Part shown: piece after piece, positions 939-56,315 of the stretch
Layout: each line of letters opens with the position of its first letter
Numbering within the stretch: position 1 is the stretch's first letter
Virus record (IMG/VR): IMGVR_UViG_3300042330_000875
Span: 64,001 to 128,000 of that record
DNA from: a virus
Length of the DNA: 64,000 bases
Direction: 5' to 3' (one strand)
Notes under the pieces: generated by a model
The model's database searches: none
Seen by the model: only the letters and a program-made list of their open reading frames with translations
Told to the model about the DNA's origin: nothing
Program-made: the position numbers and the translations under genes

Positions 939-1276
939 ATGAGTTACGTTTATTACATTGATGGTAAAAAACATCTAAGTGAAAATAGAAATGAAAAAAA
1001 TTCCTTGGCTTAGAATTTCTTCACCAGATGACAATACGCCAGCATTAGAAGACTTATCTGATGGATATAAGTTTTGGTGTTTAAAAGGATATGTTTGGCA
1101 TCGCTTAACTGGTCCTGCTGAAATTTATCCAAACGGAAATTTATTATATGGTTTGAATGGAAGAATATTTAGAAACATAAAAGGGTGGATTAAAAAATCA
1201 TCCAAATCCAGAACTTTATTTTGATGCAATTGATTTGAATGAAACCGATAGAGTTCTTTGGTATTTGAAAAATTAG
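939..1276 (+). pseudogene. HRLTGPA-family paralog copy 1 (tail A), two +1 frameshifts
   Basis: MSYVYYIDGKK at 939, core in the 979 frame, HPNPELYFDAIDLNETDRVLWYLKN in a third frame; shifts fall in A runs near 994-1000 and 1192-1197. Confidence 0.8.
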
Positions 1277-1393
1277 TTTTAAAGCGATTTAAAGCCTATT
1301 AAGTTAATTAAGCACCCAACTACCTAACTCAATCCAACCCCCTCTGTAATGTGCCTCTAATCGCATTTAAACAGCTATTTGAAAGAAAACTAA

Positions 1394-1726
1394 ATGACAC
1401 ATGTTTATTATATTGATGGAAAGAAATTTACAACAAATAATTATGGTGATATTCCTCGGTATGAAATTTCATCACCAAATGAAGAAACACCAGCTTATGA
1501 AGACACAATTGCTGGTTATAAAGAATGGCACGAAAAAGATTGGATTATTCATAGATTAACCGGACCTGCGAGAATTTGGCCTGATGGAAAAGAAGATTTT
1601 TATTTAAATGATAAAAGATATGAAAATGTAAAAGAATGGTTAAAGGATCATCCAAATCCCGATTTGTATTTTGATGCCTTGGGTATGAATGAAACTGATA
1701 AGGTTCTTTGGTATTTGAAAAATTAA
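1394..1726 (+). CDS. HRLTGPA-family paralog copy 2 (tail A)
   Basis: YYIDG..ISSPNEETPA..HRLTGPA..HPNPDLYFDALGMNETDKVLWYLKN. Confidence 0.9.
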   Translation: MTHVYYIDGKKFTTNNYGDIPRYEISSPNEETPAYEDTIAGYKEWHEKDWIIHRLTGPARIWPDGKEDFYLNDKRYENVKEWLKDHPNPDLYFDALGMNETDKVLWYLKN

Positions 1727-1755
1727 AAAGAGGGAAAGTTAACTTTCCCTCTTTT
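1726..1755. terminator. Bidirectional terminator (perfect 30-bp palindrome)
   Basis: AAAAGAGGGAAAGTT|AACTTTCCCTCTTTT between convergent genes. Confidence 0.85.
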
Positions 1756-1758
1756 CTT

Positions 1759-3061: not shown

Positions 3062-3394
3062 ATGAGATACATTTATTACATTGATGGTGAAAAATTTACA
3101 ACCGATAGAGAAGATATTCCTTGGGAAGATATATATTCACCTAATGATAATACATCCGCTTTTGAAAATTTATTAACTGGTCATAAAATTTGGTGTAAAA
3201 GAGGATTTATTCGTCATTGTTTAATCGGACCAGCAACAATTTGGCCTGATGGATCAGAATATTTTTTTATAAATGGTGAACCATATGAAAATATTCATGA
3301 TTGGTTAAAAGATCACCCAAATCCAACATTATATTTTCATAAAATTGGAGTTTTTACAGAAACCGATAAAGTTCTTTGGTACTTACAAAATTAA
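3062..3394 (+). CDS. HRLTGPA-family paralog copy 3 (tail A)
   Basis: Family motifs (HCLIGPA variant); ends TETDKVLWYLQN. Confidence 0.9.
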   Translation: MRYIYYIDGEKFTTDREDIPWEDIYSPNDNTSAFENLLTGHKIWCKRGFIRHCLIGPATIWPDGSEYFFINGEPYENIHDWLKDHPNPTLYFHKIGVFTETDKVLWYLQN

Positions 3395-4984: not shown

Positions 4985-5287
4985 TTAGTTCCAAAGTTTA
5001 AGCATTTCTTTCTTGAAAGCTTCGTCTTGATTTGGATGGTATTTTAGCCATTCATCAACATTTTCATATGGTTGATCATTTAACCAAAATTCTTTCCCAT
5101 CTGACCAAATAATGGCAGGTCCAGTTAATCGATGCCAAATATTTCCTTTTTCACACCATCGTTTATAACCAGTTTCTAAATTTTCAAATGCTGGCGTATT
5201 TTCATCGAGTGATGAAATATCATGTCTAGGAATATTATTAAAATCATCGGTTAAAAATTCTTTTCCATCAATATAAAATTTATACAT
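4985..5287 (-). CDS. HRLTGPA-family paralog copy 4 (tail B variant)
   Basis: Start MYKFYIDG after AAGGAG RBS; ends HPNQDEAFKKEMLKLWN. Confidence 0.9.
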   Translation of the reverse strand: MYKFYIDGKEFLTDDFNNIPRHDISSLDENTPAFENLETGYKRWCEKGNIWHRLTGPAIIWSDGKEFWLNDQPYENVDEWLKYHPNQDEAFKKEMLKLWN

Positions 5288-8854: not shown

Positions 8855-9256
8855 ATGAGTAATGTAGTTTTTGATCCACACGCAAGAGAACAAAAAGAAG
8901 CAACTTTTGAACGAGTTATTGAAAATGTTAATCCATTTGAAAATGATAGCATTTGGACACAAAAGTTAGCTTTAAATTGGAGCGTGTTAGCGGTTTATGA
9001 TTGTAGTAAATTGGAAAATATGTTTGGCGTATTTCCTGAAACTGCAAAAATTGCTGATTATTTTAAACAACAAAACATCGATGTTTATGTTGAAAATCTT
9101 CCTTGGATTAATCGTTATGGTAAAAACGGCATGAAAATGAACAAACTTAAACCAGCCGATCATGTAATTAGAGTTTATGCTAATTCAAAAGAAGTTTTAG
9201 AAAATTCACCTTTTGAATGGGTTCAATTTCAAATTAAGGATGAAAAATATTCTTAA
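8855..9256 (+). CDS. Hypothetical protein
   Basis: AGGAG RBS, 133 aa. Confidence 0.7.
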   Translation: MSNVVFDPHAREQKEATFERVIENVNPFENDSIWTQKLALNWSVLAVYDCSKLENMFGVFPETAKIADYFKQQNIDVYVENLPWINRYGKNGMKMNKLKPADHVIRVYANSKEVLENSPFEWVQFQIKDEKYS

Positions 9257-9588
9257 TGTTTATTTATTATGTTGATGGAAATAAATTTACAACCGATAAT
9301 AAAGATGGAATTAATTTTTATGATATTTCATCCCCCAATGATGATATTCCTGCTTTTGAAGATTTATCTGATGGATATAAATCTTGGTTTGAAAAAAAAG
9401 TAATTTGGCATCGATTAACTGGGCCAGCTAGAATTTGGTTTGATGGGACAGAAGAATTTTATTTAAATGGAATTGGTTATCCTTCTATAAAAGAATGGAT
9501 TAATGATCATCCAAATCCCGATTTATACTTCGATGCAATTGGAATAAAAACAGAAACTGAACGAGTTTTGTGGTTTTTACAAAATTAA
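9256..9588 (+). CDS. HRLTGPA-family paralog copy 5 (tail A)
   Basis: TAATG coupling; ends TETERVLWFLQN. Confidence 0.9.
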   Translation: MFIYYVDGNKFTTDNKDGINFYDISSPNDDIPAFEDLSDGYKSWFEKKVIWHRLTGPARIWFDGTEEFYLNGIGYPSIKEWINDHPNPDLYFDAIGIKTETERVLWFLQN

Positions 9589-10189: not shown

Positions 10190-10501
10190 ATGACTTATAT
10201 TTATTATATTGATGGTGAAAAATTTACAACCGATACTAAAAATGAAATTCCTCGTAATGAAATTTCATCTCCTGATGAAATTACACCTGCACTTGAAAAT
10301 TTATCAACAGGAGTTAAAATTTGGTGTAAAAAAGGATTTATTTGGCATCGTTTAACTGGACCAGGGATTATTCTCTCAGATGGTAAAAAAGAGTTTTATT
10401 TAAATGATAAATGTTATTTTAGAAATGTAAAAGATTGGTTAGCAGATCACCCAAATCAAGATAACGCCTTTCAAGTAGAAATGCTTTTAAAATATTCTTG
10501 A
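10190..10501 (+). CDS. HRLTGPA-family paralog copy 6 (tail B)
   Basis: Ends HPNQDNAFQVEMLLKYS. Confidence 0.9.
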   Translation: MTYIYYIDGEKFTTDTKNEIPRNEISSPDEITPALENLSTGVKIWCKKGFIWHRLTGPGIILSDGKKEFYLNDKCYFRNVKDWLADHPNQDNAFQVEMLLKYS

Positions 10502-16553: not shown

Positions 16554-16862
16554 ATGAGTTTTGTTTTTTACATTGAGGGTAATGAATTTACAACTCAAAA
16601 TTTTTGGAAAGTTCCTATTAATCAAGTTTCTTCACCAAATGATGAAACGCCAGCAATCGAAAATTTACGTACAGGGCACAAGTTTTGGTGCGAAAAAGGA
16701 TGGAAATTTCATCGATTAACAGGTCCAGCCGTAATTACGGGTGATGGATATAAAAAATTTTGTTTAAATGGAGAATATTACGAAAATGTAAGAGATTGGC
16801 TAAAAGAACATCCAAATCAAGATGAAACATTTCAAAAAGAAATGTTAGAAAAATACACTTAA
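16554..16862 (+). CDS. HRLTGPA-family paralog copy 7 (tail B variant)
   Basis: Ends HPNQDETFQKEMLEKYT; terminator at 16865-16895. Confidence 0.9.
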   Translation: MSFVFYIEGNEFTTQNFWKVPINQVSSPNDETPAIENLRTGHKFWCEKGWKFHRLTGPAVITGDGYKKFCLNGEYYENVRDWLKEHPNQDETFQKEMLEKYT

Positions 16863-19496: not shown

Positions 19497-19853
19497 ATGG
19501 ATTTTAAATTAGCAAAAGTATTATATGAAAAAAACGAATTAACACAAGGCGTTATTATTAAAGCAAAATATACGGCAGTTGATATGGCAGGCAGGCATTC
19601 TTTTGAAACCATAGATGAATTTTTAGTAATTTATGCTTCTATTAAGGCAGAAATGTTAATTTTACATTGTAGTCATAAAAAATCAGGTATGCGAAGAAAT
19701 TTAACACATGATTGTATTTTAGAAATTAATGGCATGACACCTGATAGAATTGCTGATAGTATTGATTTAACAATTGATGGAAATGCTAAAAAAATAGGCA
19801 ATAAACGTGGAAGAAAAACAAATGAAGAGCGCGCAAGGTTAGCTAATTTATAA
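19497..19853 (+). CDS. Hypothetical protein
   Basis: GGAG RBS; KRGRK basic tail. Confidence 0.7.
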   Translation: MDFKLAKVLYEKNELTQGVIIKAKYTAVDMAGRHSFETIDEFLVIYASIKAEMLILHCSHKKSGMRRNLTHDCILEINGMTPDRIADSIDLTIDGNAKKIGNKRGRKTNEERARLANL

Positions 19854-20182
19854 TGTTAATTTATTATATTGATGGTGAAAAATTTTACACTGAAGATTTT
19901 GATGATATTCCTCTGCATGATATTTCTTCACCTGATGAACAAACACCCGCATTTCAAGACAGTTTAACAAGTGAAAAACTTTGGTGTGAAAAAAATTATC
20001 GTTGGCATCGATTAACTGGACCAACATTAATTCGTCCAGATGAAACTGTGGGATTTTGGTTAAACGATAAAAAATACCATAATGTCCGGGATTGGATTAA
20101 AGAACATCCAAATCCAGATTTATATTTCGATGCATTAGGTATGAATGAAACAGACAGAGTGTTATGGTTTTTACAAAATTAA
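19853..20182 (+). CDS. HRLTGPA-family paralog copy 8 (tail A)
   Basis: TAATG coupling; ends NETDRVLWFLQN. Confidence 0.9.
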   Translation: MLIYYIDGEKFYTEDFDDIPLHDISSPDEQTPAFQDSLTSEKLWCEKNYRWHRLTGPTLIRPDETVGFWLNDKKYHNVRDWIKEHPNPDLYFDALGMNETDRVLWFLQN

Positions 20183-32951: not shown

Positions 32952-33034
32952 AGTTTTGTTAAGTTGCAGTTGTACGAACTCTCTCAATATTTCCTTGTTT
33001 TCTGCGGCTCTCCATGAATAGAAAATTTATTAGA
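32952..33034 (-). repeat. Promoter-cassette repeat copy 1, distal half
   Basis: TTTTGTTAAGTTGCAGTTG..GAACTCTCTCAATATTTCCTTGTTTTCTGCGGCTCT matches the 40263 and 44743 copies. Confidence 0.85.
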
Positions 33035-33054
33035 CAAGAGAGAATTGAAATGTT

Positions 33055-33363
33055 TTATGTGTATTTTAACAGCATTTCAACTTGAAAGGCACTGTCTTGA
33101 TTTGGATGATTTAAAAGCCAATCATGAATACCATAATATTGAACATTTTTTATATAAAACCAATACGTTTCATCAGGATTAATAATTGATGGGCCATTTA
33201 GTCTATGTAATATTCTGCCTCTTTCACACCATCTTTTATATCCAGTTGATAAGATTTCAAGTGCGGGTGTATTTTCATTTGGTGAGGAAATTTTAAACAC
33301 AGGGATAATATAAGGAATTACGGTTGTGAATTTTTCACCATCAATATAATAAATATAACTCAT
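33055..33363 (-). CDS. HRLTGPA-family paralog copy 9 (tail B)
   Basis: Ends HPNQDSAFQVEMLLKYT. Confidence 0.9.
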   Translation of the reverse strand: MSYIYYIDGEKFTTVIPYIIPVFKISSPNENTPALEILSTGYKRWCERGRILHRLNGPSIINPDETYWFYIKNVQYYGIHDWLLNHPNQDSAFQVEMLLKYT

Positions 33364-34952: not shown

Positions 34953-35294
34953 ATGAGTTTAACATATTTTATTGATGGAAATTCTAAATTAACCAAAGAA
35001 TATTCCAAAGTATTATTATCAATTCCTTATTATAATGATAAAACCTTAGATAATATTAACCTTAATAGTTTATTTTTTTATTTAACTGGAAAAGAAAATA
35101 TTGATGTACCAAAAAATTTTTACAATACTATTTTGTCATTTTTTGATTTAGAAGAAATTTATTTATTATATCCATTAGGTAATTTTGAAATAAAAAGTAT
35201 TAATCAAGAAAATAATGTTAACTTATTTAATTTTGAAATAAAATTTACTTTTAATAATAGTACCGATGAATTACTTTATATTTTGAGGAAATAA
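34953..35294 (+). CDS. Hypothetical protein with C-terminal tag
   Basis: Likely ATG at 34953; ends NSTDELLYILRK. Confidence 0.65.
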   Translation: MSLTYFIDGNSKLTKEYSKVLLSIPYYNDKTLDNINLNSLFFYLTGKENIDVPKNFYNTILSFFDLEEIYLLYPLGNFEIKSINQENNVNLFNFEIKFTFNNSTDELLYILRK

Positions 35295-35295
35295 A

Positions 35296-35602
35296 ATGAT
35301 AATTTATTACGTTGATAGTGAAAAATTTATAACTGATGATTACAATAAAATTCCTTGGAAAGAAGTTTCATCACCTGATGAAAATACACCAGCAATTCAA
35401 AATTTAAAAACATATTAAGTGGTGGTATAACAAAGGTGGTATTATTCATAGATTAACCGGAACGGCAAGAGCTTGGTCTGATGGATTAGAACAATTTTGG
35501 TTAAATGGAAGATATTATGGTGATGATGTTACATTTTGGCTTAAACATCATCCAAATCAAGATAATACGTTTCAAATAGAAATGTTATTAAAATATTCTT
35601 AG
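35296..35602 (+). pseudogene. HRLTGPA-family paralog copy 10 (tail B), frameshifted
   Basis: MIIYYVDSEKF..SSPDENTPAIQNLKTY* then KWWYNKGGIIHRLTGTA..HPNQDNTFQIEMLLKYS in another frame. Confidence 0.85.
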
Positions 35603-36537: not shown

Positions 36538-36870
36538 ATGTATGTTTATTATATTGATGGTGAAAAATTTACAACCAATAATAAAGATGAAATTCCTTGG
36601 TGGAAAATTTCATCTCCCGATGAAGACACCCCTGCTTTTGAAGATTTATCTGATGGATTTAAAGCGTGGTGTTTAAAAAATGGATTTGGGGATCGTTTAA
36701 TTGGTCCTGCAAAAATTTGGTCTGATGGAAGAGAAGAATTTTGGTTAAATGACAAACGATATGAAAACGTAAAGGAATGGATTGCAGATCATCCAAATCC
36801 TGATTTGTACTTTCACAATATTGGTATTTTTACTGAAACCGACAAAGTTCTTTGGTTTTTAAAAAATTAA
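36538..36870 (+). CDS. HRLTGPA-family paralog copy 11 (tail A)
   Basis: Ends TETDKVLWFLKN; terminator at 36871-36898. Confidence 0.9.
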   Translation: MYVYYIDGEKFTTNNKDEIPWWKISSPDEDTPAFEDLSDGFKAWCLKNGFGDRLIGPAKIWSDGREEFWLNDKRYENVKEWIADHPNPDLYFHNIGIFTETDKVLWFLKN

Positions 36871-40210: not shown

Positions 40211-40343
40211 ACCCAATATAGAAAATTTTCTGGTCTTTGTCAAGCGCTTTTTCAAATTTAATTTTTGTTAAGTTGCAGTTGTGTGAACTCTCTTAATTTT
40301 GTGAGGTTTTCTGCGGCTCTCCATGAATAGAAAATATATTAGA
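40211..40343 (-). repeat. Promoter-cassette repeat copy 2 (intact)
   Basis: ~135-bp similarity to 44691-44823 and to the split copy. Confidence 0.9.
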
Positions 40344-40352
40344 AATGTGAAA

Positions 40353-40664
40353 TTATGTGTATTTTAGCAACATTTCAACCTGAAAAGCATTATCTTGATT
40401 TGGATGTGCCATTAACCAATCATAAATGTTTCTATAATATACTCCATTTAGCCAAAATTCTTTATTGCCTTTTGGACGAATTAATGCTGGTCCGGTTAAT
40501 CGATGACAAATTTGACCTTTTAAATACCAAATTTTATATTCAGAATTTAACTCTTCAATTGCTGGGACATTTTCATTTGGTGAAGAAATATTATTCCTAG
40601 GTATTTTATGCCAATTGTCCTCGGTTGTAAATTTTTCACCATCTATATAATAAATAAATGTCAT
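40353..40664 (-). CDS. HRLTGPA-family paralog copy 12 (tail B)
   Basis: Ends HPNQDNAFQVEMLLKYT. Confidence 0.9.
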   Translation of the reverse strand: MTFIYYIDGEKFTTEDNWHKIPRNNISSPNENVPAIEELNSEYKIWYLKGQICHRLTGPALIRPKGNKEFWLNGVYYRNIYDWLMAHPNQDNAFQVEMLLKYT

Positions 40665-47154: not shown

Positions 47155-47525
47155 ATAATTTAGAAAAATTTTTTAATAGTGATAATAAGTTTAAAAAACA
47201 TTTATCAAATCCTGATTTAGTTATTATTGATTTGATTGATCAATTAGAAGATACATTTACCAATGAACCATTAACATTTTATCGTTATCATGAACTAGTT
47301 GATACTTTTGATGAAAATAAATTTTATAATTTTGGCAAACCTTGTTCAAAATTTGATATATTTGACAGTATTAGTAATAGTAAAACTATACAACAATTTT
47401 TAAAAATGCATAATAAAAAAATTTATTATAAAACATTTAGAAAAGAAATTGATAAATGTTATCCTAAAGTTTTTTATACATTTTTAACTGATACTGAATT
47501 AGCCATTTGGGATTTGATGAAATAA
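47151..47525 (+). CDS. Family-2 hypothetical protein with C-terminal tag
   Basis: Ends FLTDTELAIWDLMK. Confidence 0.7.
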   Translation: MNNLEKFFNSDNKFKKHLSNPDLVIIDLIDQLEDTFTNEPLTFYRYHELVDTFDENKFYNFGKPCSKFDIFDSISNSKTIQQFLKMHNKKIYYKTFRKEIDKCYPKVFYTFLTDTELAIWDLMK

Positions 47526-47613: not shown

Positions 47614-48063
47614 ATGAAAGTTTATTATGCAGATGGTAGTTGTTTAAACAATCCTGGCGTTGGCGCATGGGGTTTTACTGATTTAACCAATTCAACAGTT
47701 GGTAATGAAATTTATACAACAAATGGACGTATGGAATTAATGGCTGTAGTTGAATGTATAAATCAAATTACTGAAAACAGTACGATTTATTCTGATAGCA
47801 GTTATGTTGTAAAAGGTTTTAATGAATACATACATAAGTGGAAAAATAATACTTGGAAGAAAAAAGGTGGACCAATTAAGCATTTAGATTTATGGATGAT
47901 CGCTGACCGTAAATTAACGGAATTAAAAATTAAAAATATTTCTGTTGACGTTTGTTGGGTTAAAGGTCATGCTGATAATTATGGTAATAATTTTATTGAT
48001 CGTTTAGTTCAAGAAGAAAGTTTAAAAGTGAAAAATGGAAAATCGTTTTATATTAGAAAATAA
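47614..48063 (+). CDS. rnhA: Ribonuclease HI
   Basis: YADGSCLNNPG, TTNGRMEL, SDSSYV, WVKGHA..GN..D. Confidence 0.92.
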   Translation: MKVYYADGSCLNNPGVGAWGFTDLTNSTVGNEIYTTNGRMELMAVVECINQITENSTIYSDSSYVVKGFNEYIHKWKNNTWKKKGGPIKHLDLWMIADRKLTELKIKNISVDVCWVKGHADNYGNNFIDRLVQEESLKVKNGKSFYIRK

Positions 48064-48361
48064 TTTACAAAAATATCTAAAAAATGAAAATTATTATTTT
48101 TTATATATTGTTAAAGGTAAAGGTGTTCTTTCTAATAATGAAGAATATTTATCTGATATATTAAAATATTCTTATGATAATGTTTATTTTAATTGTGCTT
48201 GGTCTTTAATAGAAGACGAATTTAAAAATATATTGGATAAATATTTTCCAATGTTTGATATAAATAAAATTCAAAAAATTTCTTTAATTAAAGAATATTA
48301 TTTTATACCATTTATTGAATTAACTAATACCGATTATTGCATTTATAAATTACAAAATTAG
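48035..48361 (+). CDS. Family-2-like hypothetical protein with C-terminal tag
   Basis: Ends ELTNTDYCIYKLQN. Confidence 0.65.
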   Translation: MENRFILENNLQKYLKNENYYFLYIVKGKGVLSNNEEYLSDILKYSYDNVYFNCAWSLIEDEFKNILDKYFPMFDINKIQKISLIKEYYFIPFIELTNTDYCIYKLQN

Positions 48362-48370: not shown

Positions 48371-48799
48371 ATGATTATTGAACAAATTAAAAATCAAGCT
48401 TTAGTTTTACGCAAAGAAAAAAATCGTTTAGGCGCAACATTAATGACTTTACTAAATGACATTAATATGATTGGAAAAAACGCAATTCCACCAAGAGAAA
48501 GCACTGATGAAGAAGCAGTTCGCGTAATTCGCAAAGCCATCCAAATTCAAGAAGAAAATTTAAAATTAGTTTCCGTTGATAAGAAAGCATCAATTGAAGA
48601 AGAAATTTCATTATTTCAAACATTTTTACCAAAACAATTAACTGTTGAACAATTACGTGAAATTATTGTTAATTTTATTGAAAAAGAAAATTTAGAAAAA
48701 TCACCTAAATCAATTGGGGTTATTATGAAAATGTTGAATAAAGATTATCTTGGTAGTTTTGAACCTAAAACGGCAAATGAAATTATTAAGTCATTATAA
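48371..48799 (+). CDS. GatB/YqeY-domain protein
   Basis: TDEEAVRVIRK, FLPKQL, IGVIMKML. Confidence 0.85.
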   Translation: MIIEQIKNQALVLRKEKNRLGATLMTLLNDINMIGKNAIPPRESTDEEAVRVIRKAIQIQEENLKLVSVDKKASIEEEISLFQTFLPKQLTVEQLREIIVNFIEKENLEKSPKSIGVIMKMLNKDYLGSFEPKTANEIIKSL

Positions 48800-49125
48800 T
48801 GTATGTTTATTATATTGATGGGAAGAAATTTATAACTGAATATAATAGTGTAATTCCTTGGTTAGAAATTTATTCACCTGATGAAAATACACCTGCTTAT
48901 GAAGATTTAGAATATGGGTATAAGTGTTGGTATCAAAACGGTAAAAGACATCGATTGACTGGACCCGCAAGAATGTGGTCGGCTGGAAAAAAAGAATTTT
49001 GGTTAAATGATAAACATTATGAAAAGGTTCATAATTGGTTGAAAGATCACCCAAATCCCGATCTTTATTTTGATGCAATTGGTTTAAATGAAACTGAAAG
49101 AGTTTTGTGGTTTTTGCAAAATTAA
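48799..49125 (+). CDS. HRLTGPA-family paralog copy 13 (tail A)
   Basis: TAATG coupling; ends NETERVLWFLQN. Confidence 0.9.
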   Translation: MYVYYIDGKKFITEYNSVIPWLEIYSPDENTPAYEDLEYGYKCWYQNGKRHRLTGPARMWSAGKKEFWLNDKHYEKVHNWLKDHPNPDLYFDAIGLNETERVLWFLQN

Positions 49126-50192: not shown

Positions 50193-51120
50193 CTATAAAT
50201 TGACGTTCAAAAACTCTTTTACCACAATATTTTTGGCAAATTTTGCTAATTGAAAATTGTTCTTGAATTTTTTTAAAAACATTTCCATTTACAATTTGTT
50301 CAATAGAATTATTTTCTACATTTAATTCTTGTAATTCTTCATTGGAAAAAGAAAATCTTTTGTCTAAACTTAATCCCATCCAACAACAAGGAAAAATTCT
50401 ATTCCAACTGTCAAGATATAATTCTTGTTTTTCTAAACTTTGGCAACTAAATTCTCGTTCTTTAAAATTATTTGGTAATTCAATTGTTGGTAATTCTAAA
50501 TAGCCAATTGTATTTTTTTCATTATCAAAAATAGGAAATTTATCTTCTGAAAATCTATGAGTATTTTTAACAACGAATTTTTTAAATCCTAAGTCAATGG
50601 ATAAATTTCTTGCTGATTCAATTTGATGTTGATTATGTTTAAAAACAATAAACGCCCATCTTGCTTCGCAATTGTTTTTTATAACAGTTTTTGCGTTTTC
50701 TATTACTTTATCAAAGTCGCAATTTCTTCTGTAAATTGGCAAGGTATCTTTTAATCCATCAATTCCAAAAATAACAGCGCCACGATTTCCAATTGATTGT
50801 GCCAAATCTTCCCACCAATTTTCATTTCTAATCGACCCATTGGTATGAATACCAATCCAACAATTGGGAAATAATTCTCTTGTTATTTTTATTTGTTCAA
50901 TTAAATGAGGGTTAGCAATTGGATCGCCATAATTACCACAAAAAGTAATTGTTTCTAACTGCATTTGACTAATAGTTTTTTTAAAAATATCAAATGATAA
51001 ATTACTTGGAATTAATTTATCATTTATTGGTCCGCCATTTTGATTTCTTCCACATTGAACACAACTAGCATTGCAAAAACTACTTGTTTCAACATGAAGT
51101 GATTTAATATTATTCCACAT
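50170..51120 (-). CDS. Radical SAM protein with SPASM/twitch-like C-terminus
   Basis: CNASCVQC, GNYGDP, HTNG, FGIDG, PCC; likely start MWNNIK. Confidence 0.85.
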   Translation of the reverse strand: MWNNIKSLHVETSSFCNASCVQCGRNQNGGPINDKLIPSNLSFDIFKKTISQMQLETITFCGNYGDPIANPHLIEQIKITRELFPNCWIGIHTNGSIRNENWWEDLAQSIGNRGAVIFGIDGLKDTLPIYRRNCDFDKVIENAKTVIKNNCEARWAFIVFKHNQHQIESARNLSIDLGFKKFVVKNTHRFSEDKFPIFDNEKNTIGYLELPTIELPNNFKEREFSCQSLEKQELYLDSWNRIFPCCWMGLSLDKRFSFSNEELQELNVENNSIEQIVNGNVFKKIQEQFSISKICQKYCGKRVFERQFIGDNNATK

Positions 51121-51137
51121 GTTATTATTTAAATGTC

Positions 51138-51166
51138 TTGACAAATTATAAAAAATTTTCTATATT
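51138..51166 (+). promoter_or_regulatory. Sigma70-type promoter of the AAAATTTTCT class
   Basis: TTGACA-17-TATATT. Confidence 0.8.
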
Positions 51167-51192
51167 AAGCTTGTTATATAAGGAGATTTAAT

Positions 51193-51615
51193 ATGTCTAA
51201 GAAAAATAAGAAAGAAGTATTGTTGCCATTAACAACGCAACAAGAAATTCTTTTAGATAATCTACAAAATTCTAAATATCTTCGTTTGGATACACAAGAA
51301 GATATTGAAAATTTTTATGTATTAGTTAGTCATAAGTTAGCTTATACTGATTATACAGAATCAAAAGTTTTTCCTGATAAAGTTTGTCGTATTTCTGCGG
51401 TAGTAGCAAAATCAGTTTATGCTCCTAAATCTGTACCAGAAATAAAGCCTTTTAGGTATCCAGTTGGGACAAAAGTTAAAACTAAACGTCATCGACATGG
51501 ATATGAAGAAATTTATGGAGTAATTTGTTATTTTGATAATTCAGGTTATGGTATCAGAGACAAAGATAATAATATCTATGAATGTAAACATAAAGATTTA
51601 ATTATTCTTGAATAA
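51193..51615 (+). CDS. Hypothetical protein, SH3-like C-terminus possible
   Basis: AGGAG RBS; YPVGTKVK..GVI..YGI. Confidence 0.65.
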   Translation: MSKKNKKEVLLPLTTQQEILLDNLQNSKYLRLDTQEDIENFYVLVSHKLAYTDYTESKVFPDKVCRISAVVAKSVYAPKSVPEIKPFRYPVGTKVKTKRHRHGYEEIYGVICYFDNSGYGIRDKDNNIYECKHKDLIILE

Positions 51616-51643
51616 TTACATTAATGTTAGAAAGAATTTTACA

Positions 51644-51859
51644 ATGAAACATGCAATGACATTGCAAGAAGCACAAAATATTTGTTTCAAGAATGGATAT
51701 TATGGTTCGTATTATGGTTCTGGTTATACGTTTCGTAATGCAATTGAAAATTATTGCAAACAAAAATTATTGCGCGATAGTAATAATGAATTAGAAAAAG
51801 CTATTTTTCGTATTAAACAAGAGATTAGTAATCCAAAGAGTAAATTCGGTAAAAAATAA
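51644..51859 (+). CDS. Small hypothetical protein
   Basis: ORF; start uncertain. Confidence 0.5.
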   Translation: MKHAMTLQEAQNICFKNGYYGSYYGSGYTFRNAIENYCKQKLLRDSNNELEKAIFRIKQEISNPKSKFGKK

Positions 51860-51914: not shown

Positions 51915-52292
51915 ATGAATAAATTTATACAAAAAATAAAATCATTTTTTATTAAACAAAAAAGATATATTTATTACGTAGATGGTGAAAAATTTACAAC
52001 TAATAAAATCACTACAATTCCTTGGTTTAAACATTCTTCACCTAATGAAAACACGCCTGCTTTTGAGGATTTAAAAACTGGTCATAAACATTGGTGTTTA
52101 GAAGGACATATTCTTCATCGCTTAACAGGCCCTGTTTCCATTTTATCAGATGGAACTAAAACATTTTATGTAAATGGTAAAACATATGACAATGTTCAAG
52201 ATTGGTTAAAAGATCATCCAAATCCAGATTTATACTTCGATGCAATTGGGATGAATGAAACCGATAGAGTTTTATGGTTTTTACAGAAATAA
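51915..52292 (+). CDS. HRLTGPA-family paralog copy 14 (tail A, N-terminal amphipathic extension)
   Basis: MNKFIQKIKSFF extension; ends NETDRVLWFLQK. Confidence 0.9.
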   Translation: MNKFIQKIKSFFIKQKRYIYYVDGEKFTTNKITTIPWFKHSSPNENTPAFEDLKTGHKHWCLEGHILHRLTGPVSILSDGTKTFYVNGKTYDNVQDWLKDHPNPDLYFDAIGMNETDRVLWFLQK

Positions 52293-52296: not shown

Positions 52297-52605
52297 ATGA
52301 AATATATTTATTATATTGATGGTGAAAAGTTTCTAACTGATATTAGAAAACTAATCCCTTGGGATGTTATTTCATCACCAAATGAAAATACGCCCGCTTA
52401 TGAAGATATTAATACTGGAAGTAAGGCTTGGTGTGAAAAAGGACAAATTTTACATCGATTAACTGGACCTGCTAGAATTATGGTTGATGGAACTTGTCAA
52501 TTTTATTTAAATGGAAAATATTATGAAAATATACATGATTGGTTGAAAGATCATCCAAATCAAGATAATACCTTTCAAGTTGAAATGTTATTAAAATATT
52601 CTTAA
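52297..52605 (+). CDS. HRLTGPA-family paralog copy 15 (tail B)
   Basis: Start MKYIYYIDG; ends HPNQDNTFQVEMLLKYS. Confidence 0.9.
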   Translation: MKYIYYIDGEKFLTDIRKLIPWDVISSPNENTPAYEDINTGSKAWCEKGQILHRLTGPARIMVDGTCQFYLNGKYYENIHDWLKDHPNQDNTFQVEMLLKYS

Positions 52606-52615: not shown

Positions 52616-52867
52616 ATGTTTTACGAAGTAATTTTTCATCCAACTCAAATTGAACTAAAATCAATTTCTCCAACTGATTTTTATTTTTATCCTTATGCAT
52701 TATTCAATATAACGCATCAAAAACATTTAATAAATCAATATAGAAAAATCGATTATGATTTAAGTTTTCTTAATCAATCAATTTCTTTATGGTTTTCTAA
52801 AAAAGGCAATTCAGTAATTTATTGGTTAAATCCAACTGATGAAGTTTTATGGAAATTAAAAAATTGA
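52616..52867 (+). CDS. Hypothetical protein with C-terminal tag
   Basis: Ends WLNPTDEVLWKLKN. Confidence 0.7.
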   Translation: MFYEVIFHPTQIELKSISPTDFYFYPYALFNITHQKHLINQYRKIDYDLSFLNQSISLWFSKKGNSVIYWLNPTDEVLWKLKN

Positions 52868-52919
52868 TTTTAACATAACTTTTAGTTATTATTAAGAAAA
52901 ATTGAAGGTAACAAATCAA

Positions 52920-54215
52920 ATGAAATTATTTATAGGATTACTTATAATATTAATGAGCGTAATTATCAGTGGAGTTGCAGCTTATTTTAGTGTTTATGGA
53001 TTAATGGCTTTATTTGCCGCTGCTGCAATTCCAGTAGCAATCATGGGTGTTGTATTAGAAGCAGGTAAATTATTAATGGCTGCGGTTTTACATGCCAATT
53101 GGAAAAACCCTAAATTCAAATGGCCGTTGAAAAGTTTTATTGGTTTATGTATTGGATTATTGATGATTATCAATGCTTTAGGTGTTTATGGTTATTTGTC
53201 AAGAGGGCATTTAGAGCAAGAAGCACCAAAAGCTGGTATTGAATTACAAATTTCACAATTAGAAACACAAAAAAATAATATAGTAGAAGACAATAAAAGA
53301 TTAAATGATAAAATTGCTTTACTTGATAAATCAATTGAAACTTTTTTGAAAAATGATAAAGCAACTCAAGGTGAAGCGGCAAGAACAAAACAAAAAATCG
53401 AACGTGAACAATTAGAAAAATCAATTCAAGCGAATAATGAAAAAATTAATAAAATAAATGATGAAATTTTACCATTTAAACAAAAAAATGCTGATGTTGA
53501 GGCTAAATTAGGACCAGTAAAATATGTTTCTAAATTATTTGGTGTTGAACCTGAATATGCAGTTATAATAATAATTGTATTATTAATTGTTGCTTTTGAT
53601 CCATTTGCAATAGCAATGGTGATAGCAGGCAGTATTAAATTAGAAGAATATTTTGAAGATAAAAAGAAAAAAGTTTCAAAACAAGAAATTAATCAATTTG
53701 AACAAACAATCGACAGTTTAAAATTATCATTAGAAGATAAAAATAATGAAATTAAAACATTAACTGATAATTTAAATGAAATAAAAGAAGAAAAAATAAA
53801 ATATTCTGATTTATTAAATCATCGTTCAATTGAAATTAGTGAATTGCAAGATAAAATAAAAGAATATGATAAAAATGTCGATGTTTTTTCTCAAGAATTT
53901 AATGATAAAGAAAGTTTAAATGAAAAAATAGAAAATTATTCTAATGAAATCAATACATTAAAAAATAATATTAACGATTTAGATAAAATTATTTTAGATA
54001 AAGATGAACAGATAGAAAAATTAGAAGATCAAGTTAATAGAATGAATTCAGTAACATTATTGCAAGAATTGCAATCAATGGATGCGTCATTAAGAAAGGA
54101 ACAAATCATTCAGATATTAGAAAATAATCCAACTGTTGTAGAAGAAATAGTTAACATTGCCAAAGAAATACAATTAACTCCCGGTGGTGATAGAATTAGT
54201 AAAGGAAAAATTTAA
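52920..54215 (+). CDS. Membrane protein with coiled coils
   Basis: 3 N-terminal TMs (SGVAAYFSVYGL, LEAGKL, GVYGYLS), AFDPFA TM, long coiled coils. Confidence 0.75.
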   Translation: MKLFIGLLIILMSVIISGVAAYFSVYGLMALFAAAAIPVAIMGVVLEAGKLLMAAVLHANWKNPKFKWPLKSFIGLCIGLLMIINALGVYGYLSRGHLEQEAPKAGIELQISQLETQKNNIVEDNKRLNDKIALLDKSIETFLKNDKATQGEAARTKQKIEREQLEKSIQANNEKINKINDEILPFKQKNADVEAKLGPVKYVSKLFGVEPEYAVIIIIVLLIVAFDPFAIAMVIAGSIKLEEYFEDKKKKVSKQEINQFEQTIDSLKLSLEDKNNEIKTLTDNLNEIKEEKIKYSDLLNHRSIEISELQDKIKEYDKNVDVFSQEFNDKESLNEKIENYSNEINTLKNNINDLDKIILDKDEQIEKLEDQVNRMNSVTLLQELQSMDASLRKEQIIQILENNPTVVEEIVNIAKEIQLTPGGDRISKGKI

Positions 54216-55459
54216 TGTCAACAATTCAATGTTTTTTATGTGGTAAAATACAAAATGATAATAAAGAAATATTTGTTTGTAACGAATCATCTGAAAGTCC
54301 AGTATATATATGCGAAACATGTGTAACAACGGCCAATCAAGCAATTCAAGCATCAAAAGAAACCAAACACGAAAATAAGCAAGAAATTAGTGAACAAACC
54401 GATGAAATCGATGAATTAGAAGAAGATGATTTTCCTTATCCAAATGAAATTAAAGAATTTTTAGATGAATATGTTTGTGGACAAGAAGAAGCTAAAAAAA
54501 CCTTATCAGTTGCTTTATTCAATCATCACAATAGAATTCGATCTTTAATGATGGGCCAAGAAACAGAAATTGAGAAATCAAATGTATTATTATTAGGCCC
54601 AAGTGGTTCAGGAAAAACTTATTTGTTAAAAACATTATCTCGTATGTTGGATTTGCCTTTTGTTCATGTTGATGCTACTTCATTTACCGAAGCTGGTTAT
54701 GTAGGTGAAGATGTAGAAAGTATCATTAATAAACTTTATCAAGAAGCAGGTGGTGATGCTGGATTAGCATCTTTAGGTATTGTTTATATTGATGAAATTG
54801 ATAAAAAAGCAAAAAAATCATCTGATAATATTGTTTCAAAAGATATTGGTGGTGAAGGTGTTCAACAATCATTATTGAAATTAATTGAAGGAACTGCTGT
54901 AAACGTTCACATGGGTAAAGGAAAAATGCCTCAAGGACCACAAGCGGTTGTACATACTGATAATATATTATTTGTATTTGGTGGTGCATTTGTTGGGTTA
55001 AAGAAAATTATTGAACGTAGAATTAATAAAGGTAATATTGGTTTTAACCAAACTAAAGAAGAAATAACAACCGATAAAATTCAAATTGAAGATTTATATA
55101 CTTTTGGATTAATACCAGAATTAGTCGGAAGAATTCCGGTTATTGCTGAATTAAAAGCATTAAATGAAAGTGAATTAAAAAATATTTTAACTAAACCAAA
55201 AAATTGTTTAGTTGATCAATATAAAGCTATCTTTGAAATTCACGATTTAAAATTAAAATTTACTGATAATGCATTAACTTTAATTGCAAAAGAAGCAATT
55301 AAAACAAACACAGGGGCTAGAAGTTTACGTAGAATTATGGAAAAAATTTTAGAACCTATTTTATATGATTTACAAAACATTGTTGACAAAGGCTTTAAAA
55401 CTGTTATAGTCAACGAAGAAACAATTACAAACTTTAAACCTATTTTAAAACGGAGATAA
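54215..55459 (+). CDS. clpX: ClpX AAA+ unfoldase
   Basis: C4 Zn domain, KSNVLLLGPSGSGKT, TEAGYVGEDVE, DEIDK, GEGVQQSLLK, IGF loop. Confidence 0.95.
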   Translation: MSTIQCFLCGKIQNDNKEIFVCNESSESPVYICETCVTTANQAIQASKETKHENKQEISEQTDEIDELEEDDFPYPNEIKEFLDEYVCGQEEAKKTLSVALFNHHNRIRSLMMGQETEIEKSNVLLLGPSGSGKTYLLKTLSRMLDLPFVHVDATSFTEAGYVGEDVESIINKLYQEAGGDAGLASLGIVYIDEIDKKAKKSSDNIVSKDIGGEGVQQSLLKLIEGTAVNVHMGKGKMPQGPQAVVHTDNILFVFGGAFVGLKKIIERRINKGNIGFNQTKEEITTDKIQIEDLYTFGLIPELVGRIPVIAELKALNESELKNILTKPKNCLVDQYKAIFEIHDLKLKFTDNALTLIAKEAIKTNTGARSLRRIMEKILEPILYDLQNIVDKGFKTVIVNEETITNFKPILKRR

Positions 55460-55460
55460 C

Positions 55461-55979
55461 TTGAGTAAAATTATTAATGAAGATATTCGTTCCTATCGTG
55501 TGCTTTTAATTGACGAAAATGGAACTAAACTTGGTGAATTTAATCGTAATGCTGCAATCCAAATGGCTTATGAAAAAAATTTAGATTTAGTTCAAATTTC
55601 AATTGGACCAAACGAAATTCCAGTAACAAAAATGCTTGATGCTGGAAAGTATTTTTATGAAAAAGAAAAAACTTTTAAAGCACAACGATCAGCACAACGC
55701 GCAAAAGAAATTCAATTAAAAGAAATTCAATTGCGTCCTGTAACTGATACTGGTGATTTAAATGTCAAAGCCAATCGCACAAAAGAATTTCTATCAGTTG
55801 GAGATTTAGTTAAAATTGTCATGCGTTTTAAAGGGCGTGAACAAAGTAATAAAGCAGTTGGCTTCGATACAATGCAAGAATTTATCGATTTGATTCCCAA
55901 TAATCTTTATACAGTTGAACAACAATTACAAGATTCAGGAAAACAAATTATTGTTGTATTAAAAGGCATCAAACAATAA
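55461..55979 (+). CDS. infC: Translation initiation factor IF3
   Basis: INEDIR..VLLIDENG, LDLVQI, LKEIQLRP, MRFKGRE; TTG start. Confidence 0.92.
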   Translation: MSKIINEDIRSYRVLLIDENGTKLGEFNRNAAIQMAYEKNLDLVQISIGPNEIPVTKMLDAGKYFYEKEKTFKAQRSAQRAKEIQLKEIQLRPVTDTGDLNVKANRTKEFLSVGDLVKIVMRFKGREQSNKAVGFDTMQEFIDLIPNNLYTVEQQLQDSGKQIIVVLKGIKQ

Positions 55980-56315
55980 TTGGCTTATATTTATTATGTT
56001 GATGGTGAAAAATTTACAACCGATGATTACGATGAAGTTCCTAAGTATGATGTTTCTTCACCTGATGAAAATACGCCAGCTTATGAAAGTTTAGAAATTG
56101 GAACAAAAGTTTGGTGTAAAAAAGGTTGGCGTTTGTATAGATTAATTGGTCCCGCCGTTGTTTATATAAATGGTGATTATAATTTTTGGTTAGATGGAAA
56201 ATATTATGGAAAAGATATCAATGCTTGGTTAAAAAATCATCCAAATCCAGATATTTATTTCGATGCAATTGGTTTAAGTGAAACCGAACGAGTTTTGTGG
56301 TTTTTGCAAAATTAA
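55980..56315 (+). CDS. HRLTGPA-family paralog copy 16 (tail A)
   Basis: TTG start directly after infC stop; ends SETERVLWFLQN. Confidence 0.9.
   Translation: MAYIYYVDGEKFTTDDYDEVPKYDVSSPDENTPAYESLEIGTKVWCKKGWRLYRLIGPAVVYINGDYNFWLDGKYYGKDINAWLKNHPNPDIYFDAIGLSETERVLWFLQN

What the first reader, a model, noticed from the sequence alone, without database searches (positions are those of the whole stretch)
939..56315. Sixteen dispersed copies of one ~105-aa protein family (HRLTGPA motif)
Seen: copies at 939(ps), 1394, 3062, 4985(-), 9256, 10190, 16554, 19853, 33055(-), 35296(ps), 36538, 40353(-), 48799, 51915, 52297 and 55980. That is about one per 3.5 kb of phage DNA, with none inside the transposon. 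A fixed scaffold (YYIDGEKF..IP..ISSPDENTPA.EDL..G.K.WC.KG...HRLTGPA.I..DG..F.LNG..Y....WL..HPN) alternates with highly variable positions. The HRxxGPA..DG..W/F.LNG unit recalls MORN-like beta-hairpin repeats of large viruses. Inference: a diversified binder repertoire (e.g. anti-defence or host-protein targeting) or a selfish spreading gene cassette.
Basis: partly seen in the sequence, partly recalled or inferred. Interest (0 to 1): 0.85.

Follow-up and report, generated by a model that had tools for sequence, protein, structure and literature searches.

The report
Hypervariable mini-protein family in jumbo phage
An uncultured, AT-rich large phage spends about 8% of its DNA on some 40 diverged copies of one 105-residue beta-hairpin-repeat protein with a fixed scaffold and hypervariable positions rich in Trp, Tyr, Arg and His; this is most likely a repertoire of binding proteins aimed at many targets, but no function has been tested.

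Summary
The window holds 14 intact copies and 2 pseudogenes at the stated places. The whole 146-kb virus record holds 38 intact copies plus about 5 fragments, roughly 8% of the DNA and 16% of the genes. Related metagenomic fragments show the same density. First-stage readers noted the family in neighbouring windows of this genome, but not on other DNA.

Each copy has an N-terminal hairpin, two 24-residue HRxxGPA hairpin repeats, a cap and a helical tail. AlphaFold2 gave pLDDT 95. The repeats match long multi-repeat proteins that hit DUF6745. The family itself hits nothing in Pfam, PHROGs, NCBIfam, cultured phages or PDB.

- **Age:** the copies are old, at most 81% nucleotide identity.
- **Selection:** nearly all copies are kept intact.
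- **Recombination:** the copies are mosaic.
- **Variation:** it sits at about 21 positions that alternate with invariant residues in the strands. These positions are enriched in W, R, H and Y.
- **Tails:** two types are swapped among cores. The longer tail is also carried by about 25 small proteins with no detectable similarity to the family.

The best reading is a diversified binder repertoire with a shared tail module. The targets and the tail's partner are unknown. A selfish cassette is not supported.

The parts
979..1273 (+). Pseudogene of the family (long-tail type). It lacks the N-terminal hairpin and carries a frameshift and a stop before the tail.
   Evidence: two fragments, 979-1224 and 1163-1273, in different frames.
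1274..1388 (+). RepB, a ~115-nt conserved non-coding spacer that lies between two family genes. Found 4-5 times in the record and 5 times in related fragments.
   Evidence: 76-83% identity among copies.
1394..1726 (+). Intact copy with the long tail (L type), followed by an intrinsic terminator. This is the sequence that was modelled.
   Evidence: (pLDDT 94.9).
3062..3394 (+). Intact copy, L type.
4985..5287 (-). Intact copy with a short tail (the FKKEM variant). An ATG at 5287 is the likely start; the open frame runs from a TTG at 5311.
   Evidence: terminator at its 3' end.
9256..9588 (+). Intact copy, L type. Its start overlaps the stop of the upstream gene by 1 nt.
10190..10501 (+). Intact copy with the short tail (S type).
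16554..16862 (+). Intact copy, S type, followed by a terminator and a TTGACA-type promoter.
19853..20182 (+). Intact copy, L type, translationally coupled to the upstream gene. It lies two genes downstream of the ClpA-like ATPase gene.
32954..33046 (-). RepA, a ~98-nt conserved promoter-like element plus leader that follows short-tail copies. Found 6 times in the record and 7 times in related fragments.
33055..33363 (-). Intact copy, S type. A partial RepB lies upstream (33386-33421) and RepA lies downstream.
35287..35599 (+). Pseudogene, S type, with one frameshift near 35410.
36538..36870 (+). Intact copy, L type, followed by a terminator.
40259..40355 (-). RepA copy downstream of the copy at 40353-40664.
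40353..40664 (-). Intact copy, S type, overlapping the upstream gene by 4 nt.
48799..49125 (+). Intact copy, L type, translationally coupled to the upstream gene and followed by a TTGACA-type promoter.
51915..52292 (+). Intact copy, L type, with a 16-residue N-terminal extension. The homologous part starts at 51963.
52297..52605 (+). Intact copy, S type, starting 4 nt after the preceding L copy. This is one of several adjacent L-then-S pairs.
55980..56315 (+). Intact copy, L type, with a TTG start directly after the stop of the IF3-like gene. It lies two genes downstream of the ClpX-like gene.

Best explanation
The copies are a paralogous repertoire of small cytoplasmic binding proteins.

**Fold.** Each copy is predicted to contain three beta-hairpins followed by three short helices. 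In order: an N-terminal hairpin, two 24-residue HRxxGPA-type repeats, a cap motif (LNGxxY...W), and the helices.

**Recognition surface.** In the strands, every second position is invariant and presumably packs against the helical tail. The positions between them, plus the loop after hairpin 1 and the hairpin turns, are hypervariable. I infer that these form the recognition surface and that each copy binds a different target, such as a host protein or an effector of a host defence or toxin system.

**Diversification.** New specificities arise by point change and by segmental recombination (gene conversion) among copies.

**Tails.** The core is joined to one of two or three constant tails. The long tail is a portable module also carried by about 25 other small proteins of the same phage with no detectable sequence similarity to the family. 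This suggests a shared partner or destination.

**Shown:**
- copy number and intactness
- the predicted fold
- the pattern and composition of variation
- mosaicism
- tail sharing

**Inferred:**
- that the variable positions form one exposed face
- that they bind anything
- what the targets are
- what the tail does
For: **(1) Selection keeps the copies.** 38 of about 43 copies are intact. Pairwise synonymous differences are near saturation (median pS 0.48; nucleotide identity median 66%, maximum 81%). Conserved columns have pN 0.08 against pS 0.44.

**(2) Confident fold.** AF2 gives pLDDT 94.9 and pTM 0.82, with hairpins at residues 3-14, 35-44 and 67-76 and helices at 79-85, 90-95 and 100-109.

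**(3) Variation is concentrated and periodic.** In model numbering, residues 16-19, 22-24, 39, 42, 44, 50, 52, 60, 62-63, 66-68, 75 and 80 are hypervariable. They are interleaved with the conserved K43, W45, I51, H53 and I61.

**(4) Composition of hypervariable positions.** Against the phage proteome they are enriched in W (3.6x), R (2.4x), H (2.3x) and Y (2.2x), and depleted in A, G, V, I and P. From general knowledge, this is the composition of protein-binding hot spots.

**(5) Mosaic evolution.**
- Maximum chi-square pairs include 91% identity over the first 192 nt against 54% in the rest (chi2 45, 0 of 300 permutations reached it), and 63% against 97% in another pair.
- A tandem pair has identical ends and a 71%-identical middle.
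- Tail type needs 14 changes on the core tree.

**(6) The repeats belong to a wide, mostly viral repeat superfamily.** 3,917 profile hits were found, including proteins with up to 19 repeats. Structural neighbours are uncharacterised phage and giant-virus proteins.

**(7) The tail is portable.** The motif is 85 times more frequent at C-termini than inside proteins. Its synonymous codons vary, so the constraint is on the protein. The bodies of the other carriers share no BLASTP similarity. It is also present on non-family proteins of related fragments.

**(8) Ordinary operon members.** 33 of 38 copies are co-oriented with the upstream gene and 19 are coupled to it.
Against: - No binding, expression or phenotype data exist.
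'One face' rests on strand periodicity, not on a surface map.
- At hypervariable sites pN (0.60) exceeds pS (0.48). Both are near saturation in this 27% GC genome, so diversifying selection cannot be told from relaxed constraint on exposed residues.
- No orthologous pairs from close relatives were found for a clean dN/dS.
- The tail has high pLDDT in the monomer model, so it may be only a structural cap.
- No characterised homologue supports any function.
Confidence: 0.5

Rival explanations
1. The copies are old duplicates with one common function, for example a structural, chaperone-like or regulatory protein that always binds the same partner through its conserved residues. On this view the variable positions are exposed residues under relaxed constraint, and copy number serves dosage or expression in many operons and time classes.
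For: - No pair is closer than 81% nucleotide identity, and the tree is star-like with only 1 of 61 branches well supported.
- Positive selection could not be shown.
- The conserved residues (K43, W45, H53, R54, L55, G57, P58, Y76, W82, H86, P87, N88 in model numbering) could themselves form a binding site.
- Copies sit in many different operons.
Against: - The W, R, H and Y enrichment at variable sites is not what neutral surface drift gives; such drift usually favours small and polar residues.
- Recombination keeps reshuffling the variable segments.
- About 40 to 80 copies is far more than dosage normally needs.
Confidence: 0.2
2. The copies are substrate adaptors, or substrates, of the phage's own Clp machinery. 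The variable face would capture a target. The constant C-terminal tail would dock on the phage ClpX-like or ClpA-like unfoldase, as the C-terminal tail of SspB docks on the ClpX zinc-binding domain. Targets or tagged phage proteins would then be degraded on schedule.
For: The record encodes:
- a ClpA-like ATPase with Clp_N, two AAA modules and a D2-small domain (window 17251-19470)
- a ClpX-like ATPase (54215-55459) whose N-terminus has a CxxC...CxxC pattern
- a 703-residue AAA-domain ATPase, so named only from precomputed Pfam hits on an identical-size gene of another contig
- a ClpP-family protease

L-type copies lie directly after, or one gene after, all three ATPase genes. The tail sits at the extreme C-terminus of about 43 proteins. 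That C-terminal adaptor tails dock on ClpX is established knowledge for SspB, recalled from memory.
Against: - With one copy per 3.8 kb, a copy near any given gene is expected often.
- The ClpP-family protein could be the prohead protease.
- The tail is a confident helix in the monomer model, unlike known flexible adaptor tails.
- Short-tail copies lack the motif.
Confidence: 0.1
3. The family is a selfish, self-spreading gene cassette. A mobile unit (L gene, RepB, S gene, RepA) would copy itself around the genome with no benefit to the phage.
For: - The four-part unit recurs three times in the record, in part at window 979-1726, and in related fragments at 72-82% identity including its non-coding parts.
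- Copies are dispersed on both strands.
- Assemblies break at copies: two fragments overlap by 809 nt at 100% identity.
Against: - No nuclease, transposase, integrase or reverse transcriptase is part of the unit.
- No conserved sequence lies upstream of the L gene, and no terminal repeats are apparent in the flanks; they were not searched for formally.
- There are no recent copies.
- The scaffold is under strong purifying selection.
- RepA also occurs without a family gene, at a divergent promoter region (window 44739-44831).
- Gene order around two copies is the same on a contig from another sample.
Confidence: 0.07
4. The family is an array of immunity-type inhibitors. The copies would neutralise toxin or effector domains of the host (abortive infection, toxin-antitoxin, polymorphic toxins), in the way hairpin-repeat and SUKH immunity proteins do in bacteria. 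This is a specific version of the binder reading.
For: - The best, though weak, solved-structure match is the immunity protein of a deaminase toxin (6u08_B, Z 3.7).
- One tail-sharing neighbour (window 57848-58183) has a sub-threshold SUKH-1 hit (E 0.0016). Its nearest named clusters by language-model features are SMI1/KNR4 families, at 0.92-0.93.
- SUKH immunity proteins are reported to have been recruited by DNA viruses (PMC3113570, abstract).
- Bacterial immunity genes often form arrays of many paralogues (PMC3482391 mentions heterogeneous polyimmunity loci).
Against: - All similarity here is below significance.
- There is no NCBIfam or Pfam hit to MORN_2/YwqK.
- The model of the SUKH-like neighbour failed (pLDDT 42).
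Confidence: 0.13

Closest known systems
HRxxGPA hairpin-repeat proteins of phages and giant viruses, partly captured by Pfam DUF6745 (PF20530)
   Same: The two central 24-residue repeats and the cap motif match these proteins strongly. The profile gives E 7e-55 with 19 stretches in one protein. The long relatives hit DUF6745. Small stand-alone versions exist in many uncultured phages, in Agrobacterium phage Atu_ph07 and in Celeribacter phage P12053L.
   Different: - The family members themselves do not reach DUF6745 at E <= 1.
- They have their own conserved N-terminal hairpin, an SSPxExTPA first repeat and HPN-plus-helix tails.
- They are amplified to about 40 copies per 146 kb.
- None of the relatives has a known function.
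MORN repeats (Pfam PF02493) and MORN_2 / YwqK-type repeats (PF07661)
   Same: Both are roughly 23-24-residue Gly- and aromatic-containing beta-hairpin repeats that build an elongated sheet. The weak top Foldseek PDB hits are MORN4, junctophilin-2 and TgMORN1. Some BFVD neighbours are annotated as MORN proteins.
   Different: - There is no Pfam or NCBIfam match.
- PDB matches are not significant (E 0.84 or worse; Z 3.7 or lower).
- The HR..GPA signature is not the MORN consensus.
Multigene families of repeat proteins in giant viruses and poxviruses (ankyrin, MORN, BTB, F-box; poxviral ankyrin plus C-terminal PRANC/F-box)
   Same: In both cases a virus carries tens of paralogues of a repeat scaffold with variable surfaces. 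In the poxvirus case a variable binder is joined to a constant C-terminal module that docks on a common machine. This comparison is by analogy from general knowledge.
   Different: - The host is bacterial.
- Each protein is only about 105 residues with two repeats.
- The constant module is a 10-12-residue helix whose partner is unknown.
- No homology exists to those families.
Promoter-early stem-loop (PeSL) cassettes that shuffle small early genes in T4-type phages
   Same: Both have repeated non-coding promoter-bearing elements (here RepA and RepB) flanking small accessory genes, with evidence of recombination among them. The PeSL comparison is from memory.
   Different: - RepA shows no supported stem-loop: consensus fold -3 kcal/mol with no compensatory pairs.
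- Here the genes between the repeats are paralogues of one family rather than unrelated ORFs.
SspB-type ClpX adaptors
   Same: Both combine a substrate-binding body with a short conserved tail at the extreme C-terminus. The phage encodes a ClpX-like ATPase whose N-terminus has a CxxC...CxxC pattern.
   Different: There is no sequence similarity, and the tail here is predicted to be helical and packed.

Membership tests
HRxxGPA hairpin-repeat superfamily (unnamed; overlaps Pfam DUF6745) | Consecutive ~24-residue repeats with the H-R-x-x-G-P-A ... D-G ... aromatic-x-L/x-N-G pattern, detectable by profile against multi-repeat members. | tested here: met
   profile positions 30-78 match up to 19 stretches per protein, E down to 7e-55. 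One search shows the repeat in the hits. A three-repeat variant lies in the same record (L005:11224-11688).
Pfam DUF6745 (PF20530) | Score above the Pfam gathering threshold (27 bits) against the 206-position model. | tested here: not met
   0 of 80 members hit at E <= 1. Long relatives do hit (55.8-61.8 bits), but only over model positions ~48-112.
MORN repeat (PF02493) | Match to the Pfam MORN model. | tested here: not met
   no hit at E <= 1 in 80 members; none in the long relatives at E <= 0.01.
MORN repeat (PF02493) | A MORN-type fold, meaning stacked beta-hairpins in one elongated sheet similar to solved MORN proteins. | tested here: inconclusive
   MORN4 E 0.84, junctophilin-2 E 2.1, TgMORN1 E 7.5; best Z 3.7, with ciliary MORN-type chains at Z 3.3.
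MORN_2 / YwqK-family immunity proteins (PF07661; NCBIfam YwqK antitoxin) | Match to the Pfam or NCBIfam model. | tested here: not met
   no hit.
Mobile genetic element (transposon, homing-endonuclease gene) | An encoded nuclease, transposase or integrase. | tested here: not met
   no such domain. The only transposase in the window (26892-27869, IS1595 type) is not linked to any copy.
Mobile genetic element (transposon, homing-endonuclease gene) | Recent, near-identical copies and defined ends. | tested here: not met
   maximum 81% nucleotide identity; no shared sequence upstream of the cassette.
Diversity-generating retroelement target | A reverse transcriptase with a template repeat near the variable gene. 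| tested here: not met
   no RVT_1 match in the 146-kb record. The record is only about 45% of the genome.
Gene family under diversifying selection | dN/dS above 1 at defined sites, measured on unsaturated orthologous or recently diverged pairs. | tested here: inconclusive
   at hypervariable sites pN 0.60 against pS 0.48, but both are saturated. No orthologues were found.

The most novel reading that the evidence does not exclude
The phage runs a hub-and-spoke targeting system. A repertoire of perhaps 80 or more recombining mini-binders, together with some 25 to 50 other small proteins, would all carry the same 10-12-residue C-terminal helix. That helix would plug them into one phage-encoded machine; the most concrete candidate is its own ClpX/ClpA/ClpP set. 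Many different host proteins or defence effectors would then be captured and destroyed or relocated. This would be a phage counterpart of the poxviral ankyrin/F-box strategy and a natural library of programmable degraders.
Probability: 0.1. Interest if true: 0.9.

Novelty: new variant of a known kind. Interest (0 to 1): 0.72.

Why it matters
Large multigene families of repeat-protein binders are a hallmark of giant eukaryotic viruses. From my own knowledge, which I did not check systematically, no phage is known to give a sixth of its genes to one family.

If the copies are binders with different specificities, three things follow:
- Large phages would be shown to evolve combinatorial recognition repertoires by paralogue recombination.
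- The family would be a rich source of candidate anti-defence or host-takeover proteins.
- It would offer a very small (about 105 residues), confidently folded scaffold with about 20 naturally tolerant positions.

The tail shared with proteins of no detectable similarity is a second, separate lead. It points to a common partner that could organise a fifth of the phage's proteome. The family also explains why assemblies of this phage lineage fragment.

Tried and rejected
- **Complex prediction:** the L tail (residues 76-110) against two copies of the ClpX-like N-terminal zinc-ribbon region gave no verdict (score 0.02). I do not count it either way.
- **AF2 of a tail-sharing non-family protein:** a 4-sequence alignment gave pLDDT 42, which is unusable. 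The idea that the tail is the C-terminal strand-helix of SUKH-type domains therefore stays a lead. A scan of the record with the SUKH-1 model found only that one protein, below the cut-off.
- **'Copies sit at operon ends before terminators':** rejected. Terminators follow 5 of 38 copies against 23 of 190 other genes.
- **Sawyer-type run test:** it exceeded permutations (z about 14). Clustered conserved sites can also cause this, so I rely on the maximum chi-square pairs instead.
- **RepA as a structured RNA:** rejected. The consensus energy is -3 kcal/mol with no compensatory pairs. It looks like a promoter plus leader.
- **tRNA and Rfam scans of the whole record:** nothing found.
- **Megablast and tblastn against 50,697 phage records:** no match to the window or to the family.
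- **Solved structures:** Foldseek against PDB and an all-against-all VIA search found no significant match.
- **Fused forms that might reveal function:** only N-terminal helical extensions, tandem fusions and a three-repeat variant were found.
- **Orthologous regions in related fragments, for dN/dS and presence/absence:** none exist. Fragments share only family copies and repeats at the DNA level.
- **DNA-level explanation of the tail** (overlapping regulatory signal): rejected, because synonymous codons vary freely.
- **Literature searches:** DUF6745 and MORN repeats in phages returned nothing relevant.

Full report
**1. Observation**

The window is bases 64,001-128,000 of a 146,077-bp IMG/VR virus record with 27.6% GC. 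CheckV estimates the record to be 45% complete. That is 14 intact genes of 101-125 codons and two pseudogenes, at 979-1273 and 35287-35599. A search of the whole record and a stop-to-stop ORF scan found 38 intact copies and about 5 fragments. A family HMM separates members (E < 1e-12) from everything else (E > 0.1) with nothing in between. The 36 copies extracted alone cover 7.9% of the DNA, and the 38 are about 16% of about 230 genes.

**2. What each copy is**

No copy hits Pfam, PHROGs or NCBIfam. The sequence has an internal period of 24 residues. A first repeat (SSP-x-E-x-T-P-A ... K-x-W-C-x-K-G) is followed by a second (H-R-L-T-G-P-A ... D-G ... F-x-L-N-G-x-x-Y).

AlphaFold2 on an 80-sequence alignment gave pLDDT 94.9. 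The model has three beta-hairpins (residues 3-14, 35-44, 67-76) followed by three short helices (79-85, 90-95, 100-109).

A profile search of 1.8 billion representatives found 3,917 proteins at E <= 1e-3.
- True family members cover the whole profile in a single stretch and are about 100-155 residues long.
- Most other hits are long proteins in which profile positions 30-78 recur up to 19 times.
- Those long proteins carry the generic HR-x-D/N-GPA repeat and hit Pfam DUF6745.

Structural neighbours are uncharacterised proteins:
- uncultured tailed phages;
- several paralogues in Agrobacterium phage Atu_ph07;
- Celeribacter phage P12053L;
- giant viruses, some of whose proteins are annotated as MORN.

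No solved structure matches. The Foldseek best hits are MORN4 at E 0.84 and junctophilin-2 at E 2.1, and the all-against-all best is Z 3.7. No cultured phage encodes the family itself. The generic repeat occurs in only three cultured or assembled phages among 50,697 records, always annotated as 'hypothetical protein' or left unannotated.

The family is therefore a compact, stand-alone, two-repeat member of a widespread viral hairpin-repeat superfamily of unknown function. The MORN likeness is a resemblance, not membership.

**3. Genome organisation**

- Copies lie on both strands. Of the 38, 33 are co-oriented with the upstream gene and 19 are coupled to it, with a gap of 30 nt or less or overlapping stop and start.
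- Terminators and TTGACA-type promoters are no more frequent after copies than after other genes.
- Copies avoid the large functional blocks and the GC-rich island at 22-32 kb of the window.
- A four-part unit (L gene, ~115-nt RepB, S gene, ~98-nt RepA) recurs three times in the record. It occurs in part at window 979-1726 and also in related fragments.
- RepA carries a promoter-like site and a conserved leader, and it has no supported RNA fold. It also occurs without any family gene, at window 44739-44831.
- Nothing upstream of the unit is conserved.
- No nuclease, transposase or reverse transcriptase belongs to the unit.

**4. Relatives**

The family occurs only in metagenomes; 79 close homologues were found, all unnamed. 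Four IMG/VR fragments give matches at the same density: 28 in 108 kb, 11 in 35.7 kb, 10 in 40.4 kb and 7 in 23.5 kb. These fragments have the same GC content.

Beyond family copies and the repeats, the fragments share almost nothing with this record. About 15 other ORFs match, at 29-56% identity. Two of the fragments overlap by 809 nt at 100% identity. Their CheckV completeness values sum with this record's to about 98%.

They may therefore be other parts of the same or a similar genome of about 320 kb, which would then hold some 80 copies. This is an inference. Because no orthologous region was available, the test of presence or absence at orthologous sites could not be run. One 10-kb contig from another sample has the same gene order and gene sizes around two copies.

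**5. Evolution**

No two copies are close. Nucleotide identity has a median of 66% and a maximum of 81%. Median pS is 0.48 and median pN is 0.31. In a 27% GC genome pS of about 0.5 is near saturation, so gene-wide dN/dS is not informative. That nearly all copies remain open at this divergence shows each is under selection.

Per-column analysis of 64 sequences gave:
- 29 columns with entropy of 1 bit or less (pN 0.08, pS 0.44);
- 21 columns with entropy of 2.7 bits or more (pN 0.60, pS 0.48), each carrying 10-17 residue types.

In the predicted strands the two classes alternate (residue numbers as in the model):
- variable 42 and 44 flank K43 and W45;
- variable 50 and 52 flank I51 and H53;
- variable 60 and 62 flank I61.

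The remaining variable positions fill the loop after hairpin 1 (residues 16-19 and 22-24) and the turn of hairpin 3 (residues 66-68). In a beta-sheet, alternation means opposite faces. I infer that one face is conserved, presumably covered by the C-terminal helices, and that the other is variable.

Variable positions are enriched in W (3.6x), R (2.4x), H (2.3x) and Y (2.2x) and depleted in A, G, V, I and P. This is the composition typical of protein-binding hot spots rather than of neutral surface drift.

The core tree is star-like and tail types are intermixed, needing 14 changes. Maximum chi-square analysis finds strongly mosaic pairs, none of which was reached in 300 permutations:
- 91% identity over the first 192 nt, then 54%;
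- 63%, then 97%;
- 97% over the first 40 nt, then 56%.

A tandem pair outside the window has its first 37 nt and last 66 nt identical but a middle only 71% identical, including synonymous differences. Segmental recombination among paralogues is therefore shown.

**6. The tails**

The long tail ends in an N-capped helix of the form T-[DE]-x-[VI]-L-[WFY]-x-L-x-N, followed by the stop codon. The short tail replaces about 14 residues and ends differently; a third variant also exists.

Following first-stage notes on neighbouring windows, I tested whether the long tail occurs elsewhere.
- A loose motif matches the last 14 residues of 33 ORFs but only 9 internal positions out of 44,693, an 85-fold enrichment.
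- About 25 carriers are not family members.
- With the tail removed, their bodies show no BLASTP similarity to each other, apart from one pair.
- They have no Pfam or PHROG family.
- Synonymous codons in the tail vary freely, so the constraint is on the protein.
- Related fragments have seven more non-family carriers and only one internal match.

The long tail is thus a portable C-terminal module. Two readings remain open:
- It is a docking or targeting signal for a shared partner.
- It is a structural cap that spreads by recombination. Its high pLDDT in the monomer model is compatible with this reading.

The record encodes a ClpA-like ATPase, a ClpX-like ATPase whose N-terminus has a CxxC...CxxC pattern, a 703-residue AAA-domain ATPase and a ClpP-family protease. 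L-type copies lie within one gene of all three ATPase genes. This makes the Clp set a concrete candidate hub. At one copy per 3.8 kb, however, proximity is weak evidence, and the ClpP-like protein may be the prohead protease.

One tail carrier (57848-58183) has a sub-threshold SUKH-1 hit, and its nearest named clusters by language-model features are SMI1/KNR4 families. Its model failed. SUKH proteins are toxin-immunity proteins that DNA viruses have recruited (PMC3113570). This is a lead toward an immunity-like role and nothing more.

**7. Verdict**

The most likely explanation (0.5) is a recombining repertoire of small binding proteins with a fixed hairpin-repeat scaffold and a hypervariable recognition surface, joined to exchangeable constant tails. 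The targets and the tail's partner are unknown.

The rivals are:
- one common function with relaxed surface constraint (0.2);
- an array of immunity-type inhibitors (0.13);
- a role as Clp adaptors or substrates (0.1);
- a selfish cassette (0.07).

The second and third are specific versions of the binder reading. I class the finding as a new variant of a known kind: a viral multigene repeat-protein family, here found in a phage and in miniature form. I rate it as of high interest.

Noticed in passing
window 34917-35294(+), 37310-37615(-), 41505-41822(-), 41826-42167(-), 42788-43504(-), 46855-47154(+), 47151-47525(+), 48035-48361(+), 52616-52867(+), 57794-58183(+), 58170-58487(+), 63773-64000(+, cut): These small proteins show no detectable similarity to the family but end in the same C-terminal helix motif as the long-tail copies. 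There are about 25 such proteins in the whole record and 7 more on related fragments. The motif is 85 times more frequent at C-termini than inside proteins, and the constraint is at the protein level.
   Followed up: partly
window 17251-19470(+), 54215-55459(+), 55461-55979(+); G000 41233-43344(-), 51090-51698(-): The phage encodes a ClpA-like ATPase, a ClpX-like ATPase with an N-terminal CxxC...CxxC pattern, a full-length IF3 homologue (IF3_N plus IF3_C), a 703-residue AAA-domain ATPase and a ClpP-family protease. The protease may be the prohead protease.
   Followed up: partly
window 32954-33046(-), 40259-40355(-), 44739-44831(-): RepA is a ~98-nt element with a promoter-like site, an invariant GAGCCGCAG box, a variable middle and an invariant CAACTGCAACTTAAC box. 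It has 6 copies in the record and 7 in related fragments. No supported RNA fold was found, and one copy is not next to a family gene.
   Followed up: partly
window 1274-1388(+), partial 33386-33421(-): RepB is a ~115-nt spacer between L and S genes. It contains two copies of a motif of the AAAGCGATTTAAAGCC type about 65 nt apart, which could be a protein-binding site.
   Followed up: no
window 22000-32000: This is a GC-rich island (35-41% against 27%). It carries an IS1595-type transposase (26892-27869, -) and a 595-residue GH113 + RTX + DUF5648 protein (28898-30685, -). That protein has a 604-residue paralogue elsewhere in the record (G000 135062-136876), so it may not be transposon cargo.
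   Followed up: partly
window 57848-58183(+): This tail-bearing protein has a sub-threshold SUKH-1 (SMI1_KNR4) hit at E 0.0016. Its nearest named clusters by language-model features are SMI1/KNR4 families. The AF2 model failed because the alignment was too shallow.
   Followed up: partly
L012:1-809 and L018:9963-10771: Two IMG/VR fragments (35.7 kb and 40.4 kb) overlap by 809 nt at 100% identity, so they belong to one genome. Assemblies of this lineage appear to break at family copies.
   Followed up: partly
L014:~12850-13530(+); L005:11224-11688(+): Two architectural variants exist. One is an in-frame fusion of a short-tail copy and a long-tail copy (226 residues). The other is a 154-residue member with a third repeat of the generic HRD-x-DLPA type, which links the family to the giant-virus-style repeat.
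   Followed up: no
L003:12651-13311(-) (G000 52651-53311): The first 37 nt and last 66 nt of this tandem pair of short-tail copies are identical, while the middle is only 71% identical. This is a clear gene-conversion footprint.
   Followed up: yes
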